A stretch of DNA of 64,000 bases from an uncultured delta proteobacterium (GTDB lineage Bacteria > Desulfobacterota > Binatia > Binatales > Binataceae), in NCBI GenBank assembly GCA_963808235.1, contig CAWEEQ010000004.1:608001-672000 (forward strand), read 5' to 3'. The notes under the pieces are model-generated. The model saw only the letters and a program-made list of their open reading frames with translations, was not told the DNA's origin and ran no database searches. Made by a program: the position numbers and the translations under genes. Positions 16,664 through 51,203 of this stretch are shown here, piece by piece. The first letter of the stretch is position 1. Each line of letters opens with the position of its first letter.

Positions 16664-19145
16664 CTACGACAGGTTCGTGGATACCCCGGAGTCATCGTCA
16701 TCGTCACGCACGATCGGTACCTTCGGTTCCGGCTCCGGCTCGCGCAGAAACGCGAGATCGCCTTCGACCTTGCCCGGCTTGAAAAATGTATCCGGGTCAG
16801 TCAACACCAGCGCGTGCTTCAGCACCTCGTCCATATGATCGACCTGGACCAAAGTGACGTTCTTAAGAATCTGAGGCGCGATCTCCTCGATATCCTTCGC
16901 ATTCTCCTTCGGGATCAGAATCGTCTTGATCCCTCCGCGATGCGCCGCGAGCACTTTCTCCTTGAGTCCGCCAATCGGCAGCACCCGTCCGCGCAGCGTG
17001 ATCTCTCCGGTCATCGCCAGATCGTTGCGAATCGGTGAGCGCGTCAGCGCCGAGACCAGCGCCGTCGCCAGCGTGATTCCCGCCGACGGTCCGTCCTTCG
17101 GGATAGCGCCCTCGGGAATATGAATGTGGATGTCGATTCGATGATAGAAGCCGCGGTCCAGGCCCAGCACTTCCGCGCGCGATCGCACGTAGGACAGCGC
17201 CGCCTGCGCCGATTCCTGCATCACGTCGCCGAGCTGCCCGGTAATAGTCAGCTTGCCCCGGCCCGGCACGATCGTCACCTCGACGCTCAACAGCTCGCCG
17301 CCGAGTTCCGTCCACGCAAGACCCGTCGCGACTCCGACCTGCGGCACCGTCTCCGCCGTTCCGTAGCGGAACTTCGGCACGCCGAGATATTTGCCGAGAC
17401 TCGAGCTCGAAACTTTCACGTGCGCGTTGCGATCGGTCTTGACGACTTCGACCGCGACCTTGCGGCATATCGAGGCGATCTCACGCTCGAGGTTTCTGAC
17501 CCCCGCTTCGCGAGTGTAATGCCGGATGATTCCCTGGATTGCGCCGTCGGATATTTCGATATTCTCCGGCCGCAGCCCGTTGGCCTCCTGCTGCTTCTTC
17601 AGCAGGTACTTCTTGGCGATATTCAGCTTCTCCGATTCCGTGTAGCCCGGGATTCGGATCACTTCCATCCGGTCCTGGAGCGGACGCGGGATACGATCGA
17701 GCGTATTGGCGGTGGTGATAAACATCACCTTCGACAAGTCGTAGTCGCAGTCGAGGTAATGGTCATTGAAGGTGCAGTTCTGCTCCGGGTCGAGCACTTC
17801 GAGCAGCGCCGACGACGGATCGCCGCGGAAGTCCGTGGACATCTTGTCCACTTCGTCGAGCAGCAGCACCGGGTTCGACGACCCCGCCTTGCGCACCGAC
17901 TGGATAACCTTGCCCGGCAGCGCGCCGATATAAGTCCGGCGATGACCCCGAATCTCGGCTTCGTCGCGCACTCCGCCCAGCGACACGCGGACGAACTTGC
18001 GCCCCGTCGCGCGCGCCACCGACTTGCCGAGCGAAGTCTTGCCGACTCCCGGCGGTCCGACCAGGCACAGAATCGGTCCCTTCATCTGGCCGACCAGCGT
18101 CTCCACGGCCAGATATTCCAGGATGCGCTGTTTGACCTTGTCCAGTCCGTAATGATCTTCTTCGAGAACCCGCTCCGCTTCCTTGATGTCGAGCTTGTCT
18201 TCGGTGTACTCGAACCACGGTAGCGCCAGGAACCAGTCCAGGTAATTGCGCACCACGGTCGCCTCGGCCGACATCGGCGACATCATCTTGAGCTTCTTGA
18301 TCTCGCGCTCGCACTTCTCGCGCGCTTCGGCCGGCATCTTTTTCTGCCGGAGCTTTTCTTCCAGCTCCTGGATCTCGTTTTTGAATTCGTCCTTCTCGCC
18401 GAGCTCTTTCTGAATCGCGCGCATCTGCTCGTTGAGGTAGTACTCCTTCGAGGTCTTCTCCATCTGCTTCTTGACGCGGGAGCGGATGCGCTTTTCGACC
18501 TCCAGGATCTCCAGCTCCGACCGCATGTAGCCAAGGATCTTTTCCAAACGCTCGGCCGGATTGGTCGATTCGAGCAGCGCCTGCTTGTCTTCCAGCTTGA
18601 TCCCAAGATGCCCGACCAGCTTGTCGGCGAGGAACGCCGGGATCGTCGACCGCCGCGATCGAGGTCACCATCTCGGGCGGAATCTTCTTGTTGAGCCGCG
18701 CGTAGTTGTCGAAGGTCGAGACCACGGAGCGCATCAGCGCCTCGATCTCGGTGGAGCGATCGTTGACTTCCTCGATCTCCTCCGCCTCGACCTGGAAATA
18801 TTCGTCGTCCGCGACGTAGCGGAGCACCCGCGCGCGCTTCTTCCCTTCGACCAGCGCCTTGACGGTGCCGTCGGGAAGCCGCAGCAACTGCACGACCACG
18901 CCGAGCGTGCCCACCGAATAAAGATCGCCGGCCGCGGGTTCCGTGACCTTCGGATCTTTCTGCGTCACCAGCAGTATCGGCGTCTTCTTCGCCTCGGCGG
19001 CTTCCAGAGCCTTTATCGACTTCTGGCGTCCGACGAAGATCGGATAGACTTCATGCGGAAAAACAATCAGTTCGCGCAGCGGAAAAAGAGGAACGACGTT
19101 GGTCGCTCCATCGCGATTATCTTTTTTGTCATTGCGAAAAAGCAT
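16664..19145 (-). CDS. lon: ATP-dependent Lon protease; single-base frameshift near 18640
   Basis: N-domain [23 protein letters not shown]; removing one base from GGG at 18639-18641 restores [14 protein letters not shown]. Confidence 0.95.
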
Positions 19146-19169
19146 TTATAATAATCAGTCTCCCCGGTC

Positions 19170-20423
19170 TTAAGCGGTTTCGGCGGTCTTTTGATAGACC
19201 AGCAGTGGCTGCTCTTTCTGAGTAACCACTTCTTCCGAGATGAGCACCTCCTTGATATTGGGTTGCGACGGAATCTCGTACATCAGATCGACCATGATAC
19301 TTTCCATGATCGCGCGCAGCCCGCGTGCGCCGGACTTGCGCTTGAGCGCCTCGCGCGATATCGCGCGCAGCGCGCCCTGGGTAAATTTCAGGTGAACGTT
19401 CTCCATGTCGAACAGCTTCTGGTACTGGCGCACCAGCGCGTTCTTCGGTTCGGTCAGGATTCGCACCAGCGCTTCCTCGTCGAGCTCGCCGAGCGTGGCG
19501 ATCACCGGCAATCGTCCGACGAACTCCGGGATCAGCCCGAACTTGAGCAGGTCCTCCGGCTGGACTTCATATAGAAGCTCGGAAACCGTCTTGGGATCGC
19601 GATGCGTCAAGTCGGCGCGGAAGCCCATCGTCTTGCCCGAGATTCGGCGCCGGATAATATCGTCCAGTCCCACGAACGCGCCGCCGCATATGAACAGGAT
19701 GTTGGTCGTGTCGACCTGCAGGAATTCCTGCTGCGGATGCTTCCGCCCGCCCTTGGGCGGCACCGACGCCATCGTCCCCTCGATTATCTTCAGCAGCGCC
19801 TGCTGCACGCCTTCGCCCGATACGTCGCGCGTGATCGACGGGTTGTCGCCCTTGCGCGCGATCTTGTCGATCTCGTCGATATAGACGATCCCGCGCTGGC
19901 ATCGCTCGATGTCGTAATCGGCGTTCTGCAGCAGCGACAGTATGATGTTCTCGACGTCTTCGCCGACGTAGCCGGCCTCGGTCAGCGAGGTCGCGTCGGC
20001 AATCGTGAACGGCACCTGCAAAAATCTCGCGAGCGTCTGCGCGAGCAGCGTCTTGCCGACTCCGGTCGGCCCGATCAGCAGGATATTCGATTTCTGCAGC
20101 TCGACGTCGCCGGTCACCATCTGCGAGTCGATTCGTTTGTAATGATTGTGGACCGCGACCGAGAGAATCTTCTTGGCGCGCTCCTGTCCGATCACGTACT
20201 GGTCGAGCACCCGCTTGATTTCGGCGGGCTTGGGCACCGCGGAGCTCTGGCTGAACGCTTCTTCGCTGTCAGTCTCCTCGGCGATTATGTCGTTACAAAG
20301 ATCGATGCATTCGTCGCAGATATAAACCGTCGGGCCGGCAATCAGCTTGCGAACTTCATCCTGGCTCTTTCCGCAAAAGGAGCAAACCAGGTTGCCCGAT
20401 CGATCGTCATGCTTGGCCATCAC
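19170..20423 (-). CDS. clpX: Clp protease ATP-binding subunit ClpX
   Basis: CSFCGK zinc finger, [22 protein letters not shown]. Confidence 0.98.
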
Positions 20424-20448
20424 TGACTCCCGAAGATCATACCGAAGC

Positions 20449-21045
20449 TCACTTGGAGGTTCCTCGGCTAACGATTACCTCATCAATCAGCCCGTATTCA
20501 ACCGCCTGTTCCGGAGACATGAAATAATCGCGATCGGTATCCTTTTCTATTTTACGCAAGTTCTGTCCCGTATGCTTCATTATGATCGCGTTGATATCCT
20601 CCCGCGCGCGCAAAATTTCCTTCGCGTGGATCTCCAGATCGCTCGCCTGTCCCTGCATCCCGCCCAGCGGCTGATGCAGTATGATTCGCGAATGCGGCAG
20701 CGCATAGCGCCGTCCCTTCGCCCCCGCGAGGAGCAGGATTGCACCCATGCTCCCCGCCTGGCCAAGGCACAGCGTCGAGACCGGCGGCCGGATAAACTCC
20801 ATCGTGTCGTAAATCGCCATCCCCGCCGTCACCGACCCGCCCGGCGAGTTGATATAAAAATTGATCTCTTTTTCGGGATCTTCGGACTCCAGGAACAGGA
20901 ACTGCGCCGTGACCAGGTTGGCCACGTCGTCGTTCACTTCAGTGCCCAGGAAAACGATTCGATCTTTCAGCAGGCGAGAGTAGATGTCGTATGCCCGCTC
21001 ACCGCGGCCAGTCTGTTCTACGACGATCGGTACCAGGTTGCTCAT
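20449..21045 (-). CDS. clpP: Clp protease proteolytic subunit
   Basis: [24 protein letters not shown]. Confidence 0.98.
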
Positions 21046-21207
21046 TAAGGCTCACAGCCGCGACGCCGCCAGCGGGGCAGGAAGGTTTCCCGAGAAAGCC
21101 GCTGACGCATTCAAATTGTAACCACTCGGAAATGGTCGGGCAACCTTGACTGTTCGCGATTACCGCACGGCTTTGAGGGTTTGGAAGATTTTAATGTAGC
21201 GCACGCG

Positions 21208-22530
21208 CTACTTCTGCTCCGCCGGCTCGTCTGCGGGCCCGGAAGAGGCATCTTCGCGTTTTGCGCGGCTCAAAATAAAATCCAGCGCCTTCTCCCGACG
21301 CATCGTCTGCCGCAGCGCCTCCACGTTCTCTTCCTTTCTATAGAACTCCGCCGCCCGATCGCGATTACGCCCGGCCTGCGTCACGATCTCCGCCACTCGA
21401 TTCCCCAGCTCCTCATCATTGATCTCGATCTTTTCCTGCTCCGCCAGCGCGTCGACGATAAGGCCGGTCCGCGCCCGCTTCTCGGCCCGCGACTTCAGAT
21501 CCTCGCCCGCCTGCTTGACCCGCTCGCTGGCGTCCTCATGCGACAGGCCGCCCGCTTCGAGCGTCTGATGCAGTTCGGCTTCCATCGCACTCAACTCCCG
21601 GGCAACCAGAGATTCCGGCAGCTCGACCGGGTTGCGCTCGATCACAAGATCGAGCAGCCCCTGGCGCACCCGCGCATCGGCCTCCTGCTTTGCATGCGCG
21701 ACCAGCTCATTGCGGACCCTGATGCGAAACGCCTCGAGGTTCTCGTCGCCAAGATCCTTGGCGAAGTCGTCATCGACCGTCGGCAGCTCGCGCCGATAAA
21801 TTTCCTTCGGAGTCGCGCGCCATTCGATCGTCTTGCCGGCCAGTTCCTTGTGCGAGTAGTCGGCCGCGTAACTCTTCGAGGCTTTCATCTCCTTGCCGAT
21901 CTCCGCGCCCTTCAGCACTTCGTAAACGCCATGGGCGAGCGCCCGCTCGGAAACCTCGACCAGCCGATCTTCAGTCTTCGCAGTCGAGAGCGGCTTCCCG
22001 TCCTCGTACGCCTCGACCGAGGCGAGCGCGTAATCGCCGTCCGCGACCACGGTGCGATCCTCGACTTTCTTGAGCGTCCCCTGCCGCTCACGGAAACGCT
22101 CGATCGCCTCTTCGACCTGGGCGTCGGTGACCTCGACCTTCGACTCGGGGACCTTCAGGCCCTCGTAGTCCTTCACCTCGATCGTCGGGCGCAAGTCGAA
22201 GGTCGCGATGAACTTGAGCGCGAGCTCCTTCTGCAGGTCGGTCTCTTCGGTAACGATCTCCGGCGCCACCACCGGCTTGAGCGATTTCTCCTCGAGCGCC
22301 TTGTCGGTGTATTCCTTGACCAGCTTCTGCACCACCTCGGTGCGGACCTGCTCGCCGAAAAACCGCTCGAGCAGATTGCGCGGCGCATGCCCGGGGCGAA
22401 AGCCCTTCAGCACCACGCCGCGTTTGAGTTCGTTGAATGCCTTATCCAGCTCGCGCTTGATTTCGTCAGGTTCGACTTCGATCGTGAGCTTGCGCCGGAG
22501 CGTACTTGGTTCTTCTACATTTACATTCAT
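21208..22530 (-). CDS. tig: Trigger factor
   Basis: GFRPGHAP ribosome-binding motif; tig-clpP-clpX-lon synteny. Confidence 0.95.
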   Translation of the reverse strand: MNVNVEEPSTLRRKLTIEVEPDEIKRELDKAFNELKRGVVLKGFRPGHAPRNLLERFFGEQVRTEVVQKLVKEYTDKALEEKSLKPVVAPEIVTEETDLQKELALKFIATFDLRPTIEVKDYEGLKVPESKVEVTDAQVEEAIERFRERQGTLKKVEDRTVVADGDYALASVEAYEDGKPLSTAKTEDRLVEVSERALAHGVYEVLKGAEIGKEMKASKSYAADYSHKELAGKTIEWRATPKEIYRRELPTVDDDFAKDLGDENLEAFRIRVRNELVAHAKQEADARVRQGLLDLVIERNPVELPESLVARELSAMEAELHQTLEAGGLSHEDASERVKQAGEDLKSRAEKRARTGLIVDALAEQEKIEINDEELGNRVAEIVTQAGRNRDRAAEFYRKEENVEALRQTMRREKALDFILSRAKREDASSGPADEPAEQK

Positions 22531-22600
22531 GGCTGATTAATCTTAGCAGATAAACACACCGCGATTAGGGGAATCAACCGAGCGACTCGAAACAACCCTT

Positions 22601-22629
22601 TGTCATTCTGAGCGCAGCGAAGAATCCCG
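22601..22629 (+). repeat. GTCAT-tagged REP-like repeat
   Basis: TGTCATTCTGAGCGCAGCGAAGAATCCCG, same family as 50591-51202. Confidence 0.85.
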
Positions 22630-22659
22630 AATCTTTTTCGATGCGAGAACATCTCGAAT

Positions 22660-22763
22660 ATCTTTCAGGCGGCCGAGAGCAAAATGGCGTTCGCGCTCTG
22701 TGGGCTGCTTTGCGATTGAATGGACACCGGGTGCAGGGGTCACCCCTGCCGCCCCGCGCGCAG
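22660..22763 (+). repeat. About 100-bp direct repeat (partner 24081-24177) containing a GCAGGGGTCACCCCTGC palindrome
   Basis: 45-bp exact core at 22709-22753 and 24122-24166, plus a shared GCGGCCGAGAGCAAAATGGCGTTCG. Confidence 0.88.
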
Positions 22764-22786
22764 CGGTCCGAATCCGATCATCTTAT

Positions 22787-23896
22787 TTATTGAAGCGTCG
22801 GCCCGAACCGTATCGGCCCCGGCGTGAGCAAATTCGTCTTCTTCTTGTTCTGCCCGATAATCACCGACGGCGTCTGGCTTCCCCCACTCGCCAACTGGTC
22901 CGGAGTGAAATCGACGATTTGCTGAGCCGCTTCGCATTCATCGTTGTTCGCACCGACCGATACCCAGAGATCGCCCGAATGATCGAAATCAATTCCGCCC
23001 AGGCATGAACCTCCGAAGACGCGTACCGAACGCGGAAGAAGTAACTATCGTCTCCGCCGCCGGCGAGCTTTCTCCGCTCCCGGCCAGCTCTGACGCCGGG
23101 AACATTTCAAGCGCGTCTCCATGCGAAGTGCCGCCCGCAATCCACAGATTCCCCGACGCGTCGAAGCCGAGGTCCGCAACATTGAGCGCGTCAGGCAAGT
23201 CGATCGTAAGCGACGGATTCGGCGCTCCGCTCGCCGCCCGATCGCCCGGCGCAAACCTGAGCAGTTGCTGCGGGCCTAAGGCGGGCGGGAACTGCACCAG
23301 CCAGAGATTGTCGGCCGAATCGAAGCGCATCACGTTGGGAAGGAAATCCGGGCCGGTGATAGTGATACTGGCCGGCAGCGCACCGCCGTGCGCGATCTGC
23401 TTATGCGTAAACTCGACCAGCCCGTGCACGTCCGCGTCGCCGACCCACAAGTCGCCGGCCGCGTCAAAGCCGATCGTGTGCGGCACGGTGAATACCTCCG
23501 GCTTGTTCTGATTCGGATAACCAATAGTCACTTTGGGCAGCACCGTAAATCCGCTCGCGATCGCGACGATATCCGCGGCACTGATTTCCACCACCGGCGC
23601 CCCGCCGTTGCCGATCGTCGTCCCCGAAAATCCGATCCACAAGTTATTGTGCCGTCGAAAATCATCGACGTCGGATCGAAGATAACCCGGCTCCCGAACG
23701 CGAGCCGCGCGCCCGGAGTCCCGCTCTGCTTGAGCGCCTTGCCCTGAAATTCCGAAAAGAATTTCGTCCCGCCGACCCACAGCCCCCGCTCAATCGTCGC
23801 CGCCGGCTGCGCCGCCGCAATCTGTATCGCAAACCCCACCACCCCCGCCGCCGCTAGAATCAGCGAACGAATCCCAGTCCTATAATTCCGAACCAT
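22787..23896 (-). pseudogene. Secreted NHL/Vgb-like beta-propeller protein with about three frameshifts (pseudogene or read errors)
   Basis: Signal peptide MVRNYRTGIRSLILAAAG; repeated FD..G.LW units across ORFs 23528..23935, 22989..23780 and a further frame ending GPIRFGPTLQ. Confidence 0.65.
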
Positions 23897-23986
23897 TGTC
23901 CCCCCAAAAATTGCTGATCGACCCGAGCGCATCATCTAAACACCGCCCCCCGCCGGGATCAACCAAGACATCTCAAAATCAAATCA

Positions 23987-24177
23987 CCTGCGCGGTGGGC
24001 GGCAGGGGTGACCCCTTGACGCAGTGAAAGCGTGGAAGTCGAGAACGAAAATATGCGCATCGCATATTTTCGAAAAGTAAATCTTTCCAGCGGCCGAGAG
24101 CAAAATGGCGTTCGTCGGCATTTTGCGATTGAATGGACACCGGGTGCAGGGGTCACCCCTGCCGCCAGCCGCGCAGG
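23987..24177. mobile_element. MITE/REPIN-like unit with about 30-bp terminal inverted repeats
   Basis: CCTGCGCGGTGGGCGGCAGGGGTGACCCCT ... AGGGGTCACCCCTGCCGCCAGCCGCGCAGG; related copies at about 29110 and 53376-53432. Confidence 0.65.
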
Positions 24178-24362
24178 CGTGACTAAGATTCCTACGTCCC
24201 TGCTTCCCTCTCGATATCTGGACTTCGTATTCCGGAAAACTTAGACTGCGCCAGATACCCCGAGGGTATTTGCCCGGCATTGGCCCCTGCGATTTTACGA
24301 TTCGCGCCGCCGGCTCAGCCCTCAAAAAATAAACCTCGATCTTTTCAGGAGACCGTACTTAG

Positions 24363-26636
24363 ATGAGCGAAGCGAATATCGTTCTGCCCACCTTAACCAG
24401 CGGACAAGTCATGATCCTGTGGCTCGTCCTCGTCTCGGCCCTGGTCGCCCTCGGCTACGGCGTCCTTCTGATCCGCGTCGTGCTGGCCGCCGACCCCGGC
24501 CCCAAATCGATGACCGACGTGTCCGACGCCATCGAACTCGGCGCGATGGCTTATCTTGGCCGCCAGGTCAAAACCATGATCTGGTTCGTCGCCGCGATCT
24601 TCATAGCCCTCTTCTTCATGTATCGAAATGTCTATCAAGGCCTCTATCTGCCGCTCGGAATCTCCATCGCATTTCTGATGGGCGTCGCCGCGTCGTATGG
24701 CGCCGGTTACGTCGGGATGTGGCTGGCGGTCAAGGGCAACGTCCGCAGCGCCAACGCCGCGCTCACCAGCTTTAAAGATGCGATGGAACTGGCGTTCAAA
24801 GCCGGCGGCGTATCCGGGATGTTCACGGTCGGGCTCGGCCTCCTGGGCGCGACGATAATTTTTCTTGTATTCCGCGAAAATGCGATGAAGGTCCTGGTCG
24901 GCTTCGGCTTCGGCGGCTCGCTCGCCGCACTCTTCATGCGCGTCGGCGGCGGCATCTACACCAAGGCTGCCGACGTCGGCGGCGACTTGGTCGGCAAGAT
25001 CGAGCAGGACCTCCCCGAAGACGACCCACGCAACCCCGCGACGATTGCCGACAACGTCGGCGACAACGTCGGCGATTGTGCTGGGATGGCGGCCAACGTC
25101 TTCGAGTCCTACGAAGTGACTCTCGTCGCCGCGATCATCCTCGCCGCTTACGCGCTCCAGGAGTCCGACTTCATCGCCGCCTACGGCACCTATGCGGGCG
25201 CGTTCGCCGTCAAGTTGATCATGTTCGCGCTCATCCTGCGCGGCGTCGGCGTGTTCTCGTCGATCATCGGAATCATGGCGGTGCGCGTGCCGGCCGGCAA
25301 AATGCTCGATCCGATGCGCCCCATCAACATCGGCTACATGACCTCCGCGATCGCCTCGGTAATCGGATTTTTCGTAGTCAATTATTTCTATCTCGACGAT
25401 CCGCGCACCGGCGCGACCGATTGGCGCTTCGCGTGCTGCGCGTCGCTCGGAATTATTCTCGCCGTAGTAACGCTCTGGCTGACCAACTATTTCACCCACC
25501 CCGACAAAGGCCCCGTGACTGAAACTGCGATGGCGGCGCGCACCGGCCCGGCCACTTTGATTCTTTCCGGTATGGCCGAAGGCCTCGAGTCCTCAGTATG
25601 GGCGCTGCTCGTAATCGCAGCCGCAATCATCGGTGCGATGGCCATCTTCCACGAGAGTTTGGCACTCCAGTTCTACGGAATAGCACTGACCGGCTTAGGC
25701 TTGTTGACCACGACCGGCTTCATCCTCGCGATGGACACCTATGGCCCAATAACCGACAACGCCCACGGCATTTTCGAGATGGGCGGGATCCATCAGGAAG
25801 AAGCCTCAAAGACACTCTCCTGGATGGACGCGATAGGCAACACGACTAAAGCCCTAACCAAGGGCCTGGCAATCGCAACCGCAGTCTTAGCCGCAGTGTC
25901 CCTATTCCGCTCCTTCATCGATGAAGCCCACTTAGGCGCAATCGGCGTCCAGATCAACATGCCCACAGTCTTCGTAGGCCTGATGATCGGCGGCGCAGTC
26001 CCGTTCCTGTTCAGCAGTTTCGCAATAAAAGCAGTAAGCCGCGCAGCCTACCAGATCGTGTTTGAGGTCCGCCGCCAACTACGCGCGCACCCCGGCATCA
26101 TGGAAGGCAAAGAACTCCCCGACTACAGCGCGTGCGTAGACATAGTAACCGCCGCCTCCCAAAAGGAGTTACTAGGCCCCGGCATCTTGGCAATCTTCTC
26201 GCCATTGCTGGTCGGCTTCGGCCTGGGCGCAGGTGCCCTGGGGGGCTTCTTAGGCGGAACAATCCTAACTGGCCAATTGATGGCGGTCTTCATGAGCAAC
26301 GCGGGCGCCAACTGGGACAACGCCAAGAAAAAGGTTGAAGACGGCTTCTTAGGCGGCAAAGGCACCAACGTCCACAAGGCAAGCGTGGTAGGCGACACAG
26401 TAGGCGACCCTTTCAAAGACACCGCCGGCCCCGCGCTCAACCCAATGATAAAGGTGATGAACCTGGTAGCAATCTTAGCCGCCCCCTTCACCACAGCATC
26501 GCTAGGGGGCATAACCCCGCTCCGAGTAGCAGTAGTAGTCCTATCAATCATAGCATTAGCGGTAGCAGTAACCTTCTCAAAGAGAGGCTCAATCGCCGAA
26601 GAAAGCCTGGCAATAGAAACCAAGCAAGCCGCCTAA
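24363..26636 (+). CDS. hppA: Membrane-bound H+-translocating pyrophosphatase, K+-independent type
   Basis: GGIYTKAADVGGDLVGK, EDDPRNPA, DNVGDNVGD, GDTVGDPFKDT; GNTTKA carries the Lys signature of K+-independent enzymes. Confidence 0.95.
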   Translation: MSEANIVLPTLTSGQVMILWLVLVSALVALGYGVLLIRVVLAADPGPKSMTDVSDAIELGAMAYLGRQVKTMIWFVAAIFIALFFMYRNVYQGLYLPLGISIAFLMGVAASYGAGYVGMWLAVKGNVRSANAALTSFKDAMELAFKAGGVSGMFTVGLGLLGATIIFLVFRENAMKVLVGFGFGGSLAALFMRVGGGIYTKAADVGGDLVGKIEQDLPEDDPRNPATIADNVGDNVGDCAGMAANVFESYEVTLVAAIILAAYALQESDFIAAYGTYAGAFAVKLIMFALILRGVGVFSSIIGIMAVRVPAGKMLDPMRPINIGYMTSAIASVIGFFVVNYFYLDDPRTGATDWRFACCASLGIILAVVTLWLTNYFTHPDKGPVTETAMAARTGPATLILSGMAEGLESSVWALLVIAAAIIGAMAIFHESLALQFYGIALTGLGLLTTTGFILAMDTYGPITDNAHGIFEMGGIHQEEASKTLSWMDAIGNTTKALTKGLAIATAVLAAVSLFRSFIDEAHLGAIGVQINMPTVFVGLMIGGAVPFLFSSFAIKAVSRAAYQIVFEVRRQLRAHPGIMEGKELPDYSACVDIVTAASQKELLGPGILAIFSPLLVGFGLGAGALGGFLGGTILTGQLMAVFMSNAGANWDNAKKKVEDGFLGGKGTNVHKASVVGDTVGDPFKDTAGPALNPMIKVMNLVAILAAPFTTASLGGITPLRVAVVVLSIIALAVAVTFSKRGSIAEESLAIETKQAA

Positions 26637-26640
26637 GATC

Positions 26641-27490
26641 CGCCTCTCCCTCGAGAGAGGCCGCGCGTCCGTCGCGGGTGAGGGCGCGCACATCGCGCTC
26701 GATGCCCAGCACGGCACCTCCAACGGATGGCGACGAAAGTCGCCATCCGTTTCTTGGTTGTTTATTTTTGTGTCATCCTGAGCGGAGGCTGCCGGAGTCG
26801 AAGGATCTCCGCGAAGCGATGCTCCCTCCTACCTCGCCCGTGTATTGATGCGCGAGTTTCCTAGTCGCGCCACCACCCTTAACTGCTCAGCAGCCCAAAC
26901 TCAAAGGTACTCCAGAAATCTCCGCCCAGCGTGGCAGCCGAGCGGGCAGCCAACCCAACCAACCCCCGAACACCGCTACCCCCAGCGCCCTCGCATCTTA
27001 TTTTTGTGTCATCCCGAGCGAAGCCGAGGGACCCCGGATCTTTCTCGACGCCGACCGATCGCACCCCCAATCCAATGCTCAATCGATACTCGGAAAACGA
27101 GACCGTCTTTCTTTGTTTCCCCTCGACTTGAGTTTCCCTCGGGTCATCCTGAGCGGCGGCTGCCGGAGTCGAAGGATCTCCGCGAAGCGATTTCTACCAA
27201 GCACAATTCTGGACGCATTAACCAAATGCCAATTCCTTCCCAAGCTCCGAGCACAGCGAAGAATCCCGTCTCCGGATGCGAAACCCACCATGGGTTTCGC
27301 CCTTCCCCTCGTGACGTGCAACTTCTCCGATACCTCGCCCGTTATTTTCACGGGAGACGACGCCGACCGCTCCGCGGTCGGTAGGTGAGGGTTCTGCGAT
27401 CCAAGCAACCCGCCGAACAACACACCTCAGCGTCCGCGCTCTTTGTGTCATTCCGGGCGAAGCCGAGGAACCCCGGATCTTTCTCAACGT
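26641..27490. repeat. Cluster of REP-like repeats from several families
   Basis: GTCAT-type copies at 26771, 27007, 27143 and 27446 (degenerate one at about 27245); CTCTCCC/GTGAGGG type at 26641 and about 27333; GAAACCCA..TGGGTTTC at about 27278. Confidence 0.85.
26722..26755 (+). terminator. Rho-independent terminator of hppA
   Basis: AACGGATGGCGAC-GAAA-GTCGCCATCCGTT followed by T-rich tail. Confidence 0.8.
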
Positions 27491-27624
27491 CATCGACACC
27501 ACACCATGCCACTCACCAACCGATCACCCGAACATAGGTACTCCGCGCTGAACTGCTGAGGTCTCCATAAGACTTCCAGTTGACATAGCGCTTCCAAAAA
27601 GCGAATGGTGAGCTCGGCATTCCA

Positions 27625-28986
27625 ATGTCAAAAAATATAACGCATGTGATCCTCCTGATGCTGGAGAATCGCTCCTTCGATCACATACTCGGATGCTTGC
27701 AGCAGAAGTACCCGACGCTCGATGGTATCGATCCGAAGGCTCCCGCTAAGAACACCTATCAGACCATCGACTATGTCCAATCGCCCGGCGCCGCGCGTTA
27801 TCTGAACTTCGATCCGCGCCATGAGTACGAGCACGTGATGGTTCAGTTGTCGAATGGCAACGGCGGATTCGTCCAGGACTTCTCGCAGGCGTATCCCAAG
27901 GCGACTTCGACCGATCGTGCCGAGGTGATGAAGTATCACGACCTGAACAAGCTGCCCGCGATGCACGCACTGGCGCAGAACTTCACCGTCTGCGACCACT
28001 GGTTTTCATCGGTACCCGGACCGACCTGGTGCAATCGACTGTTCGCACTCAGCGGAACGTCGCTCGGCCGAGTCGCGATGGCCGAAGGAATCATGAACTT
28101 GAACCTTCACTGGTACGATCAACCCACGATCTTCGACCGGCTCAACGAGCAACAGATCTCCTGGAAAATTTATGCCGGTGACGCGCCGTTGTCCTTGCTC
28201 TTCGTCCATCAATGGGAACCACAAAATGCAGCGCGCTATCGCTTGATGACCGAATTTTATCGCAACGTCGCCTCCTTCAAAAAAGGCAGTGGTCCCACGC
28301 CAGGTCTCCCCCAATTCACTTTCATCGAACCAAGTTATTGTCAGCCGGGCGCGAACGACGCTCATCCTCCGCACGATATTCTTGCCGCCGACGCGCTAGT
28401 CGCCAACGTCTACAACGCGATCAGAGCGAACAAGGATCTATGGGATCAAACGCTGTTGGTCGTCGCGTTCGATGAACACGGAGGTTTCTTCGATCACGTA
28501 ACGCCGCCCGCTACGGTGCCTCCGGATTTTCATCAGGAGGAATACACGTTTGATCAATTCGGGGTGCGCGTTCCTGTCATCCTGGTGTCTCCTTGGGTCG
28601 ACAGGGCGATATTCTCCGATCCCATGGACCATACAGGTCTTCTGAAATATCTGCGTGGACTGTGGTCGTTGGGCCCTTTGGGCTACAGGACCGAGGTTAT
28701 TGGTTCATTCGACGCTGCGTTACTCTCGACAATGCGCGACGACAGTGTGCTCCCGAAGATTGTCTCTACGATGCCTGTCGCGGCGACTCAGCAACCGCCG
28801 CGGGTGGATTCGCTCAATACTCATTCCGGAGCGCTCGTCGCCCTGTCGCATGTTCTCGAGTCGATGGCTGAAGAAGACGCGAACGTCGTTGCCGCACGAG
28901 CGCGCCAGGTGCTGAGCGGCCCGCAGAGTCAAATCGATGCCGCAATCGACAGATTTGAAAGCTTCCTGAAAGTTCGACGCAAATAG
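27625..28986 (+). CDS. Phosphoesterase/phospholipase C family protein
   Basis: LMLENRSFDH, SSVPGPTWCNR, FDEHGGFFDHV, GVRVPVILVSPW. Confidence 0.9.
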   Translation: MSKNITHVILLMLENRSFDHILGCLQQKYPTLDGIDPKAPAKNTYQTIDYVQSPGAARYLNFDPRHEYEHVMVQLSNGNGGFVQDFSQAYPKATSTDRAEVMKYHDLNKLPAMHALAQNFTVCDHWFSSVPGPTWCNRLFALSGTSLGRVAMAEGIMNLNLHWYDQPTIFDRLNEQQISWKIYAGDAPLSLLFVHQWEPQNAARYRLMTEFYRNVASFKKGSGPTPGLPQFTFIEPSYCQPGANDAHPPHDILAADALVANVYNAIRANKDLWDQTLLVVAFDEHGGFFDHVTPPATVPPDFHQEEYTFDQFGVRVPVILVSPWVDRAIFSDPMDHTGLLKYLRGLWSLGPLGYRTEVIGSFDAALLSTMRDDSVLPKIVSTMPVAATQQPPRVDSLNTHSGALVALSHVLESMAEEDANVVAARARQVLSGPQSQIDAAIDRFESFLKVRRK

Positions 28987-29358
28987 CCGCCTACTTTCGT
29001 TCGGCTAAACTTGAGAACGTTTCACGCGAAACATTCGCGTCGGAACCCCAGCAAATCCTACCACCCCCTTCGAACAGGCGCTACGCGCCGCATCTTACTC
29101 CTCACTCAGGTGCAGGGGCATGGCCCCTGCCCAAGGAAGCGTGAAACCCACGGTGGGTTTCACTACAATTAAATTCTGCTCTCTCTCGGCCCAGCCCGCG
29201 CTGGCCCACCCGGTTTGCTCCCAAGCTTCTCCTCACCCCATGCGACACCCTCACCCCCGCCTTCTCCCTCAAATGCCCCTATGTCATATTCGCCTACCAG
29301 AACGTAACAATAACTCATCCGGATGCCCCACTCGCGGGAGCAATCATGAGGAGCAATC

Positions 29359-30189
29359 ATGAAGTCCAAAACCTGCCGCCTGGTTTCACTTCTGATAGTC
29401 GCGTTTCTCCTGGTACCGGCCCTTGATGCGCGCGCGGATTCCTGCGACGACGCCAAGGACGCGGCCAATAAGTACACCGACTCCTACGAAGAAATTCGCA
29501 CCATCGACGTCGACGCGCTCAAGCATCTGGTCAAGGCGGTATGCGATGCGGACGCGGGCGAACGGAAGCAGGTTTTTCGCGATGAAGCCGATCGAGTCGA
29601 GAGCCTGGTTCTCGGCGAGAAGAGCAAGCTCGACGGCGAGCGCGACGACGCAAATTCAAAGCTCGACGCCGCCATCGCCGATGACCAATGCCAGGATAAG
29701 AAAGACGATCTCTCGGCTCTTAAAGATAGAATCGGGGAAGTCTCCGGACGCATCGAAAAAATTTCCCAGACCGGCGTCAAGCTCGGCAGTAATCCCGCCT
29801 TCGACAAACTTAGAGAGCTCGGCCAGCAAGCGCACGACGACTACTACTCGCACAATTCCAAATGCGCCGACTATAGAGACTTGAAGGTCGGAGACCTCAA
29901 ACCCGATTGTCTCGATCCCGATAAGTGCATGGTCATCGAGCTCAAGCCCGACAACAGCCGCGCCGCCGACAACGGATGGACCAATGCGCAGGCGTCGCGA
30001 GATCTGCTCAACAGCGACGAAGGATTCGACGCCACCGCGGAAGCGAACTCCAACTTCAAAGACGCCTTTGCGCAATGCAAGGGCAAGTTCAAAGCAAGAG
30101 TCGATTGTTATCACTACTGCCCCGATGTAGACGACGACGGGAACTTGAAGAGCACCAGTCTCGATTGGACCACTTGCAAAAGCGACTAG
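29359..30189 (+). CDS. Secreted Cys-rich protein with helical N-part and C-terminal restriction-endonuclease-fold (Tox-REase-9-like) domain
   Basis: GAGGAG RBS; signal peptide ending ARA; GQQAHDDY, KPD and IELKPDN..A motifs. Confidence 0.6.
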   Translation: MKSKTCRLVSLLIVAFLLVPALDARADSCDDAKDAANKYTDSYEEIRTIDVDALKHLVKAVCDADAGERKQVFRDEADRVESLVLGEKSKLDGERDDANSKLDAAIADDQCQDKKDDLSALKDRIGEVSGRIEKISQTGVKLGSNPAFDKLRELGQQAHDDYYSHNSKCADYRDLKVGDLKPDCLDPDKCMVIELKPDNSRAADNGWTNAQASRDLLNSDEGFDATAEANSNFKDAFAQCKGKFKARVDCYHYCPDVDDDGNLKSTSLDWTTCKSD

Positions 30190-50590: not shown

Positions 50591-51203
50591 CCGGGTTTCT
50601 TCGCTGCGCTCAGAATGACACAAAAAACAGACTCCACTCGGAAGAACATAAAACATCAACCCTGTGGATCGAACTTTCATTCTGGTTCTTTGTGGGTCTG
50701 CTCTGCGTCCTTGTGTCATTCTGAGCGAAGCGAAGAAACCCGGTCTTCGCTCGACACAGCACTCAAGTCCTGCCACGAGGGGTTTTCTTGTTCAATCAGT
50801 GCAATCTTTTTTGACCGCGTTAGGGACTTAATATGTTTCTCGGCTTCAATCGCTGCGCCGATGTCGTTTGTCTCCTGGAAATAGACTAAACGGTCGATGC
50901 CGTAGCGTTTTGTGAATCCGTCGAGGGTGCCGCTTTTGTGTTCGTACACGCGGCGTTCGAGATCGTTGGTCACGCCAACGTAGAGCGTTCGCGAGATGCT
51001 GCTCATGATGTAGACGAAGTAGGACTTGGGGCTCGATGTTCTTCGCGTGGTCATCCGGGTTTCCTTGCTTCGCTCGGAATGACACAACGATCAGGCACGG
51101 AATTGAGGAAAGGCACGATGTCCTCGCTTCGCCTTGGGTCTTGGAGGGTCGATGTTCTTCGCGTGGTCATCCGGGTTTCCTTGCTTCGCTCGGAATGACA
51201 CAA
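50591..51203. repeat. Four GTCAT-tagged repeats around the GIY-YIG gene
   Basis: Copies at 50591-50622 (-), 50712-50743 (+), 51055-51086 (-), 51171-51202 (-); exact 55-bp duplication 51033-51087 / 51149-51203. Confidence 0.92.
50716..51054 (-). CDS. Small stand-alone GIY-YIG nuclease
   Basis: YFVYIM...TLYVGVTNDLERRVYEHK, GFTKRY, AIEAEKHIK, NPSWQDL. Confidence 0.92.
   Translation of the reverse strand: MTTRRTSSPKSYFVYIMSSISRTLYVGVTNDLERRVYEHKSGTLDGFTKRYGIDRLVYFQETNDIGAAIEAEKHIKSLTRSKKIALIEQENPSWQDLSAVSSEDRVSSLRSE

What the first reader, a model, noticed from the sequence alone, without database searches (positions are those of the whole stretch)
25450..26636. Steep, strand-specific rise of A at third codon positions in the 3' part of hppA, toward the repeat cluster
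Seen (hand count): 29 of the last 58 sense codons (26460-26633) end in A and none ends in T (GTA GCA GTA GTA GTC CTA TCA ATC ATA GCA TTA). In 24900-25079 of the same gene only 3 of 60 codons end in A. The protein stays a normal H+-PPase. Acquiring a low-GC allele would raise both A3 and T3, so this looks like a directional N-to-A mutational halo filtered by purifying selection. Inference: repeated nicking and repair or ssDNA exposure at the adjacent repeats (26641-27490), possibly caused by the GIY-YIG nuclease, leaves a polar mutation footprint about 1 kb long.
Basis: partly seen in the sequence, partly recalled or inferred. Interest (0 to 1): 0.8.

Follow-up and report, generated by a model that had tools for sequence, protein, structure and literature searches.

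The report
Adenine-ending codon gradient in hppA
The last third of a proton-pumping pyrophosphatase gene in this soil bacterium has switched, without changing the protein, to rare codons ending in A; the pattern is real and recent, but the neighbouring DNA repeats are probably not its cause.

Summary
In hppA (24363-26636, +) 29 of the last 58 sense codons end in A and none in T, against 3 of 60 in 24900-25079. This is the most extreme such window among about 4000 ORFs of the 4.59 Mb genome. Contigs from other sequencing runs confirm the bases.

The shift is derived. The protein is 92-98% identical across the genus, and the excess consists of synonymous changes to A on this lineage's own branch: 10 in codons 0-360 against 62 in 360-757. 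Other changes stay flat.

The repeat/nuclease explanation is poorly supported:
- Relatives without the repeats already have A-rich tails of 30-37%.
- A transporter gene has such tails in 15 of 24 species, 12 of them without a repeat.
- Six hppA orthologues with a downstream repeat have none.

Leu, Ser and Arg codon-family switches, avoidance of GGA, and dependence on the next base all point to an AT-ward pressure filtered at codon level. The cause of the polarity towards the 3' end is unresolved.

Separately, the repeats' orientation tracks extreme local C/G strand skew in this genome. That link replicates only weakly in other genomes.

The parts
24363..26636 (+). hppA, membrane H+-translocating pyrophosphatase, 757 codons plus TAA
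   Evidence: ORF. Pfam PF03030 over residues 27-705, E = 3.9e-236. Orthologues 92-98% identical in same-genus genomes.
24363..25577 (+). Baseline segment: A3 0.081; already C3-rich and G3-poor relative to orthologues
   Evidence: change point. G>C is the commonest change on this lineage's branch along the whole gene.
25578..26522 (+). Intermediate segment: A3 0.238, unique to this genome among the orthologues examined
   Evidence: For a slightly different span (340 codons ending 60 codons before the stop), A3 is 21% here against 3-15% in 77 other loci. 55 to-A changes on the terminal branch in codons 360-720.
26523..26633 (+). Terminal segment: A3 0.595, T3 0; partly shared with sister species
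   Evidence: 11 to-A changes are shared with L003 and 7 more are on the terminal branch. Predicted RNA folding energy of the last 150 nt is -33 kcal/mol, against -40 to -66 in five orthologues.
26643..26660 (.). Short palindrome CCTCTCCCTCGAGAGAGG just after the stop codon. It sits where all relatives carry a conserved GGGCCGGaCG...CGTCCGGCCC-T-run terminator.
   Evidence: Read. Homology with relatives ends at the stop codon.
26722..26751 (+). Terminator-like hairpin (13 pairs) followed by TCTTGGTTGT; different from the genus-wide hppA terminator
   Evidence: This is a consensus scan only.
26772..27489 (+). Four co-oriented copies of the GTCATYCYGRGCG repeat family: 26772-26820, 27003-27050, 27143-27191, 27442-27489
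   Evidence: About 71 family copies in the genome; 0-94 copies of the core motif in 47 genomes of the genus. No Rfam match up to E = 1 in 24000-28000.
22602..22660 (+). A further co-oriented copy of the same repeat family, 1.7 kb upstream of hppA
   Evidence: C4:630602, +; up+ 1761.
50806..51021 (-). Nearest GIY-YIG domain gene, flanked by repeat copies at about 50619 (-), 50715 (+), 51083 (-) and 51199 (-); 24 kb from hppA
   Evidence: PF01541, 54.1 bits.

Best explanation
The 3' part of hppA carries a recent synonymous re-coding, specific to this lineage, towards A-ending codons, which are rare in this genome.

Most likely cause (inferred): a local AT-ward substitution pressure. It comprises G>A and C>A at third positions and C>T at leucine first positions. 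It acts at the 3' end of the gene, and selection at codon level lets it through only partly. Codons ending in T, and GGA/CGA, are still rejected, and the protein is kept. A therefore rises while T does not.

Timing (shown): the process began at the extreme 3' end before this species split from its sister, when the gene still had the conserved terminator and no repeats. On this genome's own branch it then intensified and spread about 1 kb upstream. The same branch lost the terminator and acquired a new 3' flank.

Polarity (open): either the force that normally keeps synonymous sites GC-rich, whether selection or recombination with relatives, weakens next to the recurrent synteny break at the stop codon, or a weakly folded A-rich mRNA 3' end is itself favoured.
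For: Derived and directional. On the terminal branch there are 10 to-A third-position changes in codons 0-360 against 62 in 360-757, while all other changes are flat at 57 against 66. The terminal branch is 0.14 substitutions per site in the 5' half and 0.40 in the 3' half, against 0.04 and 0.02 for the sister.

Predates the repeats. On the shared stem, 12 of the 14 to-A third-position changes past codon 360 lie from codon 540 onward, against 2 in codons 0-360; 23 are shared with the sister over 360-757 when the ambiguous sites set aside in that table are included. A3 in the last 60 codons is 37% in L043, 30% in L038 and 23% in L061. All three keep the conserved terminator and have no repeat core within 4 kb.

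Not third-position mutation alone. The 3' half has 13 CTN>TTR, 4 TCG>AGY and 1 CGC>AGA synonymous family switches, against 2 in the 5' half. Sense-strand C>T is therefore also raised wherever it is synonymous, so the lack of T3 looks like a filter.

Codon and context filter:
- Glycine shifts to A in 1 of 35 codons. Second-base G gives 3 of 43, against 69 of 217 after a pyrimidine (p = 0.0006).
- A is gained before a purine in 78 of 202 sites and before a pyrimidine in 12 of 92.
- NTC>NTA occurs in 24 of 54 sites, NCC>NCA in 2 of 28.

Not translational optimisation. GTA, CTA, TTA, ATA and TCA make up 2-8% of their families in EF-G, EF-Tu and neighbouring genes.

A general 3'-end tendency. Across 1829 genes A3 rises from 0.11 to 0.16 over the last 10 codons while T3 stays flat. 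14 of the 37 top A3-minus-T3 windows lie in the last fifth of their gene. The transporter gene has A-rich, T-poor tails in 15 of 24 species.

Literature. Search listings and the opening lines of abstracts were seen for AT-biased mutation in bacteria (PMC2936535, PMC2936529) and for rare-codon clusters at 3' termini (PMC2833160).
Against: - T3 does not merely fail to rise. It falls from 10% to 4.6% to 0, and a passive filter explains that only partly.
- C>A transversions after T are as frequent as G>A transitions. This is odd for a plain AT-biased spectrum.
- A strand-specific process, such as error-prone resynthesis of the antisense strand, would also remove G and T and add A and C. It is not excluded.
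- In this genome the repeats do associate with strand composition. The unique intermediate segment coincides with the only hppA locus that has four repeats directly downstream.
- No polymorphism data were available to separate mutation from selection.
- A role for recombination or gene conversion in keeping GC high in this organism is assumed, not shown.
Confidence: 0.45

Rival explanations
1. First reader's model. Repeated nicking or single-strand exposure at the GTCAT repeats, perhaps by the GIY-YIG nuclease, gives a polar, strand-specific mutational halo about 1 kb long in the upstream gene.
For: All figures here are for this genome only, with hppA excluded unless stated.
- Genes with a co-oriented repeat within 600 nt of their 3' end (29, including hppA) have tails with A .172, C .471, G .274, T .082. 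Genes with an anti-oriented repeat (16) have .102/.265/.425/.208. The remaining 2758 have .139/.370/.336/.155. Mann-Whitney p = 1.9e-6 and 4e-4.
- On the repeat strand, AT skew is raised within about 1 kb and C-over-G skew from about -8 to +3 kb.
- 35 of 40 clusters have C>G at four-fold sites.
- 18 of the 67 genes with |C/G skew| of 0.4 or more have a repeat within 1.5 kb, in the predicted orientation for 17 of the 18.
- rpoD and sucD of this genome, each with a co-oriented repeat 113 or 50 nt downstream, have the highest C/G skew of their orthologue sets: 0.43 against -0.06 to 0.31 in 28 others, and 0.58 against -0.09 to 0.23 in 26 others.
Against: - A-rich hppA tails occur in relatives without repeats, and shared to-A changes predate the insertion.
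- Six hppA orthologues with a co-oriented core 795-3222 nt downstream have tail A3 of 2-12%.
- 12 of the 15 A-rich transporter tails lack a repeat in the flank held.
- rpoD and sucD show the C/G shift but no A3 rise.
- The G-rich skew of the hydrolase next to an anti-oriented repeat is ancestral: 16 of 18 orthologues are also negative.
- There is no association in five other genomes, at 39 of 74 loci. Only the subfamily with the GGATCTTTCTCG tail shows a trend, at 14 of 19.
- Local skew domains exist in relatives regardless.
- A-richness stops at the stop codon, and the spacer is GC-rich.
- Leu, Ser and Arg family switches and the sparing of glycine do not fit a simple N>A process.
- The nearest GIY-YIG gene is 24 kb away.
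Confidence: 0.13
2. Adaptive re-coding. An A-rich, G- and U-poor 3' end is selected. Possible benefits are a weakly folded mRNA end after loss of the intrinsic terminator, or slow decoding of the last transmembrane helices by rare codons.
For: - Recurrence of A-rich, T-poor tails in two unrelated genes and many species.
- Near-saturation of the sites that can take A in the last 37 codons.
- Two-step serine family switches. These have been argued to need selection (Rogozin et al. 2016; recalled, not seen).
- Predicted folding energy of the last 150 nt is about halved: -33 against -40 to -66 kcal/mol in five orthologues, while a 5' control segment is unchanged at -60 against -58.
- Rare-codon clusters at 3' termini are a described phenomenon (PMC2833160; listing and start of abstract).
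Against: - No link between A-rich tails and membrane proteins: 9 of the top 60 against 11% of all genes, Mann-Whitney p = 0.88. No link with tail hydropathy either (rho = 0.003).
- Folding z-scores are near 0, so the weak folding is only a matter of composition.
- T-ending codons are equally rare yet are avoided, so rarity alone is not what is selected.
- The closest relatives function with 4 A-ending codons in the same 30.
Confidence: 0.22
3. Mosaic allele. The 3' part was imported by homologous recombination from an unsampled relative whose hppA was already A3-rich.
For: - The A3 profile is stepped, with change points at nt 25578 and 26523.
- The flanks are rearranged on both sides.
- Nucleotide identity to 18 orthologues drops from 85-89% to 79-82% in the 3' half.
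Against: - Non-A third-position changes and amino-acid changes are not raised in the 3' half.
- The same sister (L003) is recovered for both halves, with 76% and 100% support.
- None of 77 other loci has an intermediate segment above 15% A3.
- Two metagenome scans found no such allele.
- This model only moves the question to the donor.
Confidence: 0.1
4. Assembly or base-calling artefact.
For: The genome is a metagenome-assembled genome in 4 contigs.
Against: The changes respect codon positions and keep the protein 92-98% identical to relatives. Independent contigs from other runs agree with 0-1 differences.
Confidence: 0.01

Closest known systems
Rare-codon clusters at 3' gene termini (Clarke and Clark 2010, PMC2833160; search listing and start of abstract seen)
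   Same: A cluster of the genome's rarest codons (GTA, CTA, TTA, ATA, TCA, AGA) in the last tens of codons. A weak version is visible genome-wide and in orthologues.
   Different: Only A-ending rare codons are used, and T-ending ones are depleted. The cluster extends about 350 codons upstream in steps. It is demonstrably derived on one branch within a genus.
AT-biased mutation opposed by selection or gene conversion at synonymous sites of GC-rich bacteria (PMC2936535, PMC2936529; listings and starts of abstracts seen)
   Same: The net direction is GC to AT at synonymous sites. It includes leucine first positions and arginine family switches, with the protein conserved.
   Different: The effect is confined to 1 kb of one gene, polar towards the 3' end, and shows up as A only on the sense strand.
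Replication- or transcription-associated strand compositional asymmetry, and the use of gene-level GC skew to infer inversions (PMC6220195; listing and start of abstract seen)
   Same: Loss of G and T and gain of C and A on one strand is the classical lagging-strand direction. The C/G skew around hppA spans genes of both orientations from 16.6 to 30.2 kb.
   Different: There is no replichore-scale skew, and the domains are only 5-10 genes long. Transcription-associated deamination predicts a rise in T3 on the sense strand, which is the opposite of what is seen.
Strand-coordinated mutation clusters next to DNA breaks or nicks (kataegis-type single-strand damage; recalled, no paper seen)
   Same: G>A occurs preferentially before a purine, which is C>T after a pyrimidine on the other strand.
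   Different: One third of the changes are C>A. Codon-family switches are included. The tails exist without the repeats. No nuclease activity or cut site is known.

Membership tests
H+-translocating pyrophosphatase (Pfam PF03030) | Full-length match to the family profile above the curated cut-off | tested here: met
   786 bits against a cut-off of 29.7, profile positions 1-644 of 645.
3'-terminal rare-codon cluster | Local excess of the genome's rare codons within the last ~50 codons, relative to the gene body and to genome usage | tested here: met
   A-ending codons make up 2-12% of their families genome-wide but 29 of the last 58 codons here. hppA ranks first of 4001 ORFs.
3'-terminal rare-codon cluster | Position-specific conservation of the cluster across orthologues | tested here: inconclusive
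   A3 in codons 720-750 ranges from 1 to 13 of 30 in relatives. The intermediate segment is unique to this genome.
Replication-associated strand skew | Skew sign constant over a replichore and switching at origin and terminus | tested here: not met
   Mean raw skew is about 0.01 at the Mb scale. Autocorrelation of four-fold-site skew falls to 0 by lag 10 genes.
Transcription-associated (non-template strand) deamination | Excess C>T, and so a T3 rise, on the sense strand of the transcribed gene | tested here: not met
   T3 falls from 39 of 390 to 17 of 367. C>T at third positions is 14 in the 5' half against 10 in the 3' half on the terminal branch.
   Met in this genome only.
   For the A3 tail. 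For C/G skew the result is mixed: derived at rpoD and sucD, ancestral at the hydrolase.
   39 of 74 loci overall. The subfamily with the GGATCTTTCTCG tail gives 14 of 19, p = 0.06.
   Only the presence of six GIY-YIG domain matches in the genome is shown.
Diversity-generating retroelement (adenine-directed change) | Template/variable repeat pair and reverse transcriptase; adenines of the template replaced in the target | not tested
   Considered only. The direction is opposite, since A is gained, and the changes are synonymous. No repeat of the hppA 3' part was reported within 22000-30000.

The most novel reading that the evidence does not exclude
An oriented, GIY-YIG-associated miniature repeat (the subfamily ending in GGATCTTTCTCG) marks, and perhaps creates through strand-specific nicking and error-prone resynthesis, kb-scale domains in which the repeat-bearing strand loses G and T at synonymous sites. 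The hppA A-gradient, next to four copies, would then be its strongest footprint. The patchy 5-10-gene strand-skew domains of Binatus genomes would be the accumulated record of such events.
Probability: 0.13. Interest if true: 0.8.

Novelty: new variant of a known kind. Interest (0 to 1): 0.5.

Why it matters
Synonymous sites are usually treated as locally uniform. Here 1 kb of a strongly conserved gene has been re-coded in one direction within the divergence of a genus. The change can be polarised branch by branch, which makes this a clean natural case for separating mutation bias, codon-level selection and loss of GC-maintaining forces in an uncultured soil lineage.

It also shows that 'A up, T not up' does not by itself prove strand-specific mutagenesis. 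Leucine first positions reveal the missing C>T.

The side observation may matter more. These genomes carry short strand-skew domains that are independent of replication. In one genome the orientation of a mobile repeat predicts their sign. If causal, this would be a new source of local mutational asymmetry in bacteria.

Tried and rejected
- Translational optimisation: rejected. A-ending codons are the least used in EF-G, EF-Tu and neighbouring genes.
- Replication strand or a nearby origin: rejected. The skew switch near 31 kb in the window is one of many local switches.
- Membrane-protein or hydrophobic-tail effect: rejected.
- Effect of a convergent downstream neighbour: weak at best, p = 0.067.
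- Known RNA family in 24000-28000: only three sub-threshold chance-level hits.
- Promoter-like sites in 25400-27700: 1 found, 1.0 expected.
- Antisense ORF 26123-26623: considered and rejected as a gene. It lies in the frame whose third positions coincide with those of hppA and would itself be T3-rich. This is inference only.
- CpG loss through methyl-cytosine deamination: rejected, because NNC|G>NNT|G does not rise and GTG and AAG also change.
- Two metagenome-contig scans for the G000-type tail found nothing. This collection may simply not hold the lineage.
- The search of earlier findings was not open.
- The repeat literature search returned only organelle and eukaryote papers. I found no description of this repeat family with that one search, and supplements were not consulted.
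- Parts of 25400-27600 are without contig cover in the laid runs. This says nothing either way.
Full report
**What is there**

The ORF at 24363-26636 (+) encodes a 757-residue H+-pyrophosphatase (PF03030, E = 3.9e-236). Titles of related public records place the genus in Candidatus Binatus, family Binataceae. The window is C4:608001-672000 of a 4.59 Mb assembly in four contigs.

**Check of the observation**

The hand counts are exact. In 26460-26633 the 58 codons end in A 29, C 21, G 8 and T 0. In 24900-25079 the 60 codons end in A 3, C 44, G 9 and T 4.

A3 per 30 codons runs at about 2 up to codon 360, about 7 from there to codon 720, and then 19 of 30. A three-segment fit puts the steps at nt 25578 and 26523, with A3 of 0.081, 0.238 and 0.595. 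T3 falls from 39 of 390 to 17 of 367 (p = 0.005).

Genome-wide, over 4001 crude ORFs, A3 is 0.127 and T3 is 0.160. No other ORF reaches 29 A in 58 codons, and hppA also ranks first for A3 minus T3.

Contigs assembled from other runs match 25864-26029 and 26439-26537 with no difference. They match 26508-26883, which spans tail, stop codon and first repeat, with one difference. One of these runs may be the source sample.

**The shift is derived and directional**

Nineteen same-genus orthologues of equal length are 96-98% identical in protein.
- Against their consensus, this gene has 108 third-position changes to A, 14 in the first 360 codons and 94 after. It has 21 changes from A and 168 others, split 77 and 91.
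- Maximum-likelihood trees of both halves make L003 (G020) the sister, with 76% and 100% support. The terminal branch here is 0.14 in the 5' half and 0.40 in the 3' half, against 0.04 and 0.02 for the sister.
- Polarised with the sister, the terminal branch has 10 to-A changes in codons 0-360 and 62 in 360-757. Non-A changes number 57 and 66.
- The stem shared with the sister already has 23 to-A changes in 360-757. In the per-window table they begin at codon 540.
- G>C is frequent along the whole gene (25 and 29 changes).

Among 77 further loci of the family, A3 in the last 60 codons is 48% here, then 37% (L043), 30% (L038), 23% (L061) and 2-22% elsewhere. A3 in the 340 codons before that is 21% here and 3-15% elsewhere.

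**What kind of change it is**

A-ending codons are the least used in EF-G, EF-Tu and adjacent genes. GTA is 0.04 of its family, CTA 0.03, TTA 0.02, TCA 0.02 and ACA 0.03. This is not optimisation.

The gain of A depends on context.
- After second-base T it occurs in 36 of 103 sites, after C in 33 of 114, after A in 18 of 34, and after G in only 3 of 43. Glycine shifts in 1 of 35 (p = 0.0006).
- Before G it occurs in 50 of 126 sites and before A in 28 of 76. Before C it occurs in 7 of 49 and before T in 5 of 43.
- NTC>NTA occurs in 24 of 54 sites, NCC>NCA in 2 of 28, and NCG>NCA in 31 of 85.

The 3' half also has 13 CTN>TTR, 4 TCG>AGY and 1 CGC>AGA synonymous switches, against 2 in the 5' half. 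On the terminal branch these appear as 11 C>T, 4 T>A and 4 C>G changes at first and second positions with no amino-acid change.

Sense-strand C>T is therefore raised where it is synonymous. The absence of T3 then looks at least partly like rejection of T-ending codons rather than absence of the mutation. This last step is inference.

**The 3' flank**

All 18 same-length orthologues carry a conserved hairpin-plus-T-run terminator directly after the stop codon. This genome does not. It has a short palindrome, a different terminator-like hairpin (26722-26751) and four co-oriented repeats starting at 26772, 27003, 27143 and 27442. Homology with three relatives ends at the stop codon.

**Test of the repeat hypothesis for the A3 tail**

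- The A-rich tails of L038, L043, L061 and L109 sit next to the conserved terminator, with no repeat core within 4 kb.
- Six orthologues have a co-oriented core 795-3222 nt downstream. Their tail A3 is 2-12%.
- An MFS transporter gene (C4:1100160-1101464) has tails with 28-53% A3 and 0-7% T3 in 15 of 24 species. Only 3 of these have a repeat in the flank held, and two of the flanks are short.
- A-rich tails are not tied to membrane proteins, tail hydropathy or neighbour orientation.

What remains unique to this genome is the intermediate segment.

**Genome-wide behaviour of the repeats**

The family has about 71 copies in 47 clusters here. Small GIY-YIG genes sit inside some clusters, the nearest at 50806-51021.

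With hppA excluded, flanking genes are A+C-rich at third positions on the strand that carries the repeat, whichever way the gene runs.
- At four-fold sites within 1 kb, C is 4770 against G 3021. Of 40 clusters, 35 are positive. AT skew is positive in 25 of 40.
- Of the 67 genes with |C/G skew| of 0.4 or more, 18 have a repeat within 1.5 kb. In 17 of these 18 the orientation is as predicted. The background is about 2%.
- rpoD and sucD, each followed by a co-oriented repeat, have the most extreme skew of their orthologue sets.
- Within the window, every gene from 16.6 to 30.2 kb is C-rich on the + strand, unlike its orthologues in G015.

Against a causal reading:
- The hydrolase next to an anti-oriented repeat has an ancestral skew.
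- Five other genomes show no association overall, at 39 of 74 loci. Only the subfamily with the GGATCTTTCTCG tail shows a trend, at 14 of 19, against 44 of 51 for that subfamily in this genome.
- Short strand-skew domains occur in relatives anyway. Adjacent same-strand genes correlate at r = +0.22 to +0.47 and opposite-strand genes at r = -0.26 to -0.53.
- rpoD and sucD show no A3 rise.

The repeat-skew link is thus real in this genome, its causal direction is open, and it concerns mainly C against G rather than A.

**Consequence for the RNA**

The last 150 nt of the coding sequence fold to -33 kcal/mol here, against -40 to -66 in five orthologues. A 5' control segment gives -60 against -58. 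All z-scores are near 0, so this is composition rather than a specific structure.

**Verdict**

The best reading, with confidence 0.45, is an AT-ward synonymous pressure that is polar towards the 3' end and filtered at codon level. It is older than the repeats and intensified on this lineage together with the replacement of the 3' flank.

Rivals are adaptive selection for an A-rich 3' end (0.22), a repeat- or nick-driven halo (0.13), an imported allele (0.10) and an artefact (0.01).

Claims that include the two genomes flagged as unpublished (G018, G023) are the consensus-based counts, where G023 is 1 of 18 sequences, and single rows. None depends on them.

Papers: only search listings and the opening lines of abstracts were seen. 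Rogozin et al. 2016 is recalled, not seen.

Noticed in passing
whole genome G000; also G020:C18 (377 kb) and G006:C1:1.0-1.4 Mb: C/G skew at four-fold sites forms strand domains of about 5-10 genes that ignore gene orientation. Neighbours on the same strand correlate at r = +0.22 to +0.47 and on opposite strands at r = -0.26 to -0.53, with autocorrelation gone by lag 10 genes. Replichore-scale skew is almost nil. The cause is unknown.
   Followed up: partly
window 16664-30189: Every gene in this stretch (lon, clpX, clpP, an unnamed ORF, hppA and two downstream ORFs) is C-rich on the + strand at four-fold sites, at +0.10 to +0.45, except the phosphoesterase at 0.00. The orthologues of lon, clpX, clpP and hppA in G015 are near 0.
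   Followed up: partly
genus-wide (47 genomes): Copy number of the repeat core GTCATYCYGRGCGNAG ranges from 0 to 94 per genome, with 73 here and 37 in the sister G020. The family is therefore mobile or rapidly turning over.
   Followed up: partly
C4:1749243-1750492 and window 50619-51199: Small GIY-YIG genes (100-124-codon open frames) are flanked by arrays of the repeats that face the gene from both sides, some in tandem with a 175-210 nt period.
   Followed up: no
window 22660-22766 and 24081-24179: Direct repeats of about 100 nt (94-95% identical, spacing 1413-1421 nt) bracket the 1.4 kb just upstream of hppA. An inverted copy lies at 23987-24026. This stretch has no counterpart in G015.
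   Followed up: no
C4:1539490-1540716, C4:1849095-1850132, C4:3654965-3655891: Other genes with strongly A+C-rich, G+T-poor last 60 codons (A .35-.38, C .45-.60, G .05-.20, T 0-.02), not membrane proteins. The first lies downstream of three tandem repeats.
   Followed up: no
C4:1100160-1101464 and orthologues L331-L351: The MFS transporter gene has an A-rich, T-poor 3' tail in most species of the genus (up to 53% A3, with G3 down to 7-8%). One clade (L333-L336, L339) has 5-8% A3.
   Followed up: partly
G004:C5 and G002:C7 (L126/L151, L137/L152): Two near-identical rpoD copies 2-6 kb apart in each of two relatives. This could be a real duplication or an assembly repeat.
   Followed up: no
window 26634-26636 and orthologues: The hppA stop codon varies among close relatives (TAA, TGA, TAG) while the last seven codons are nearly invariant.
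   Followed up: no
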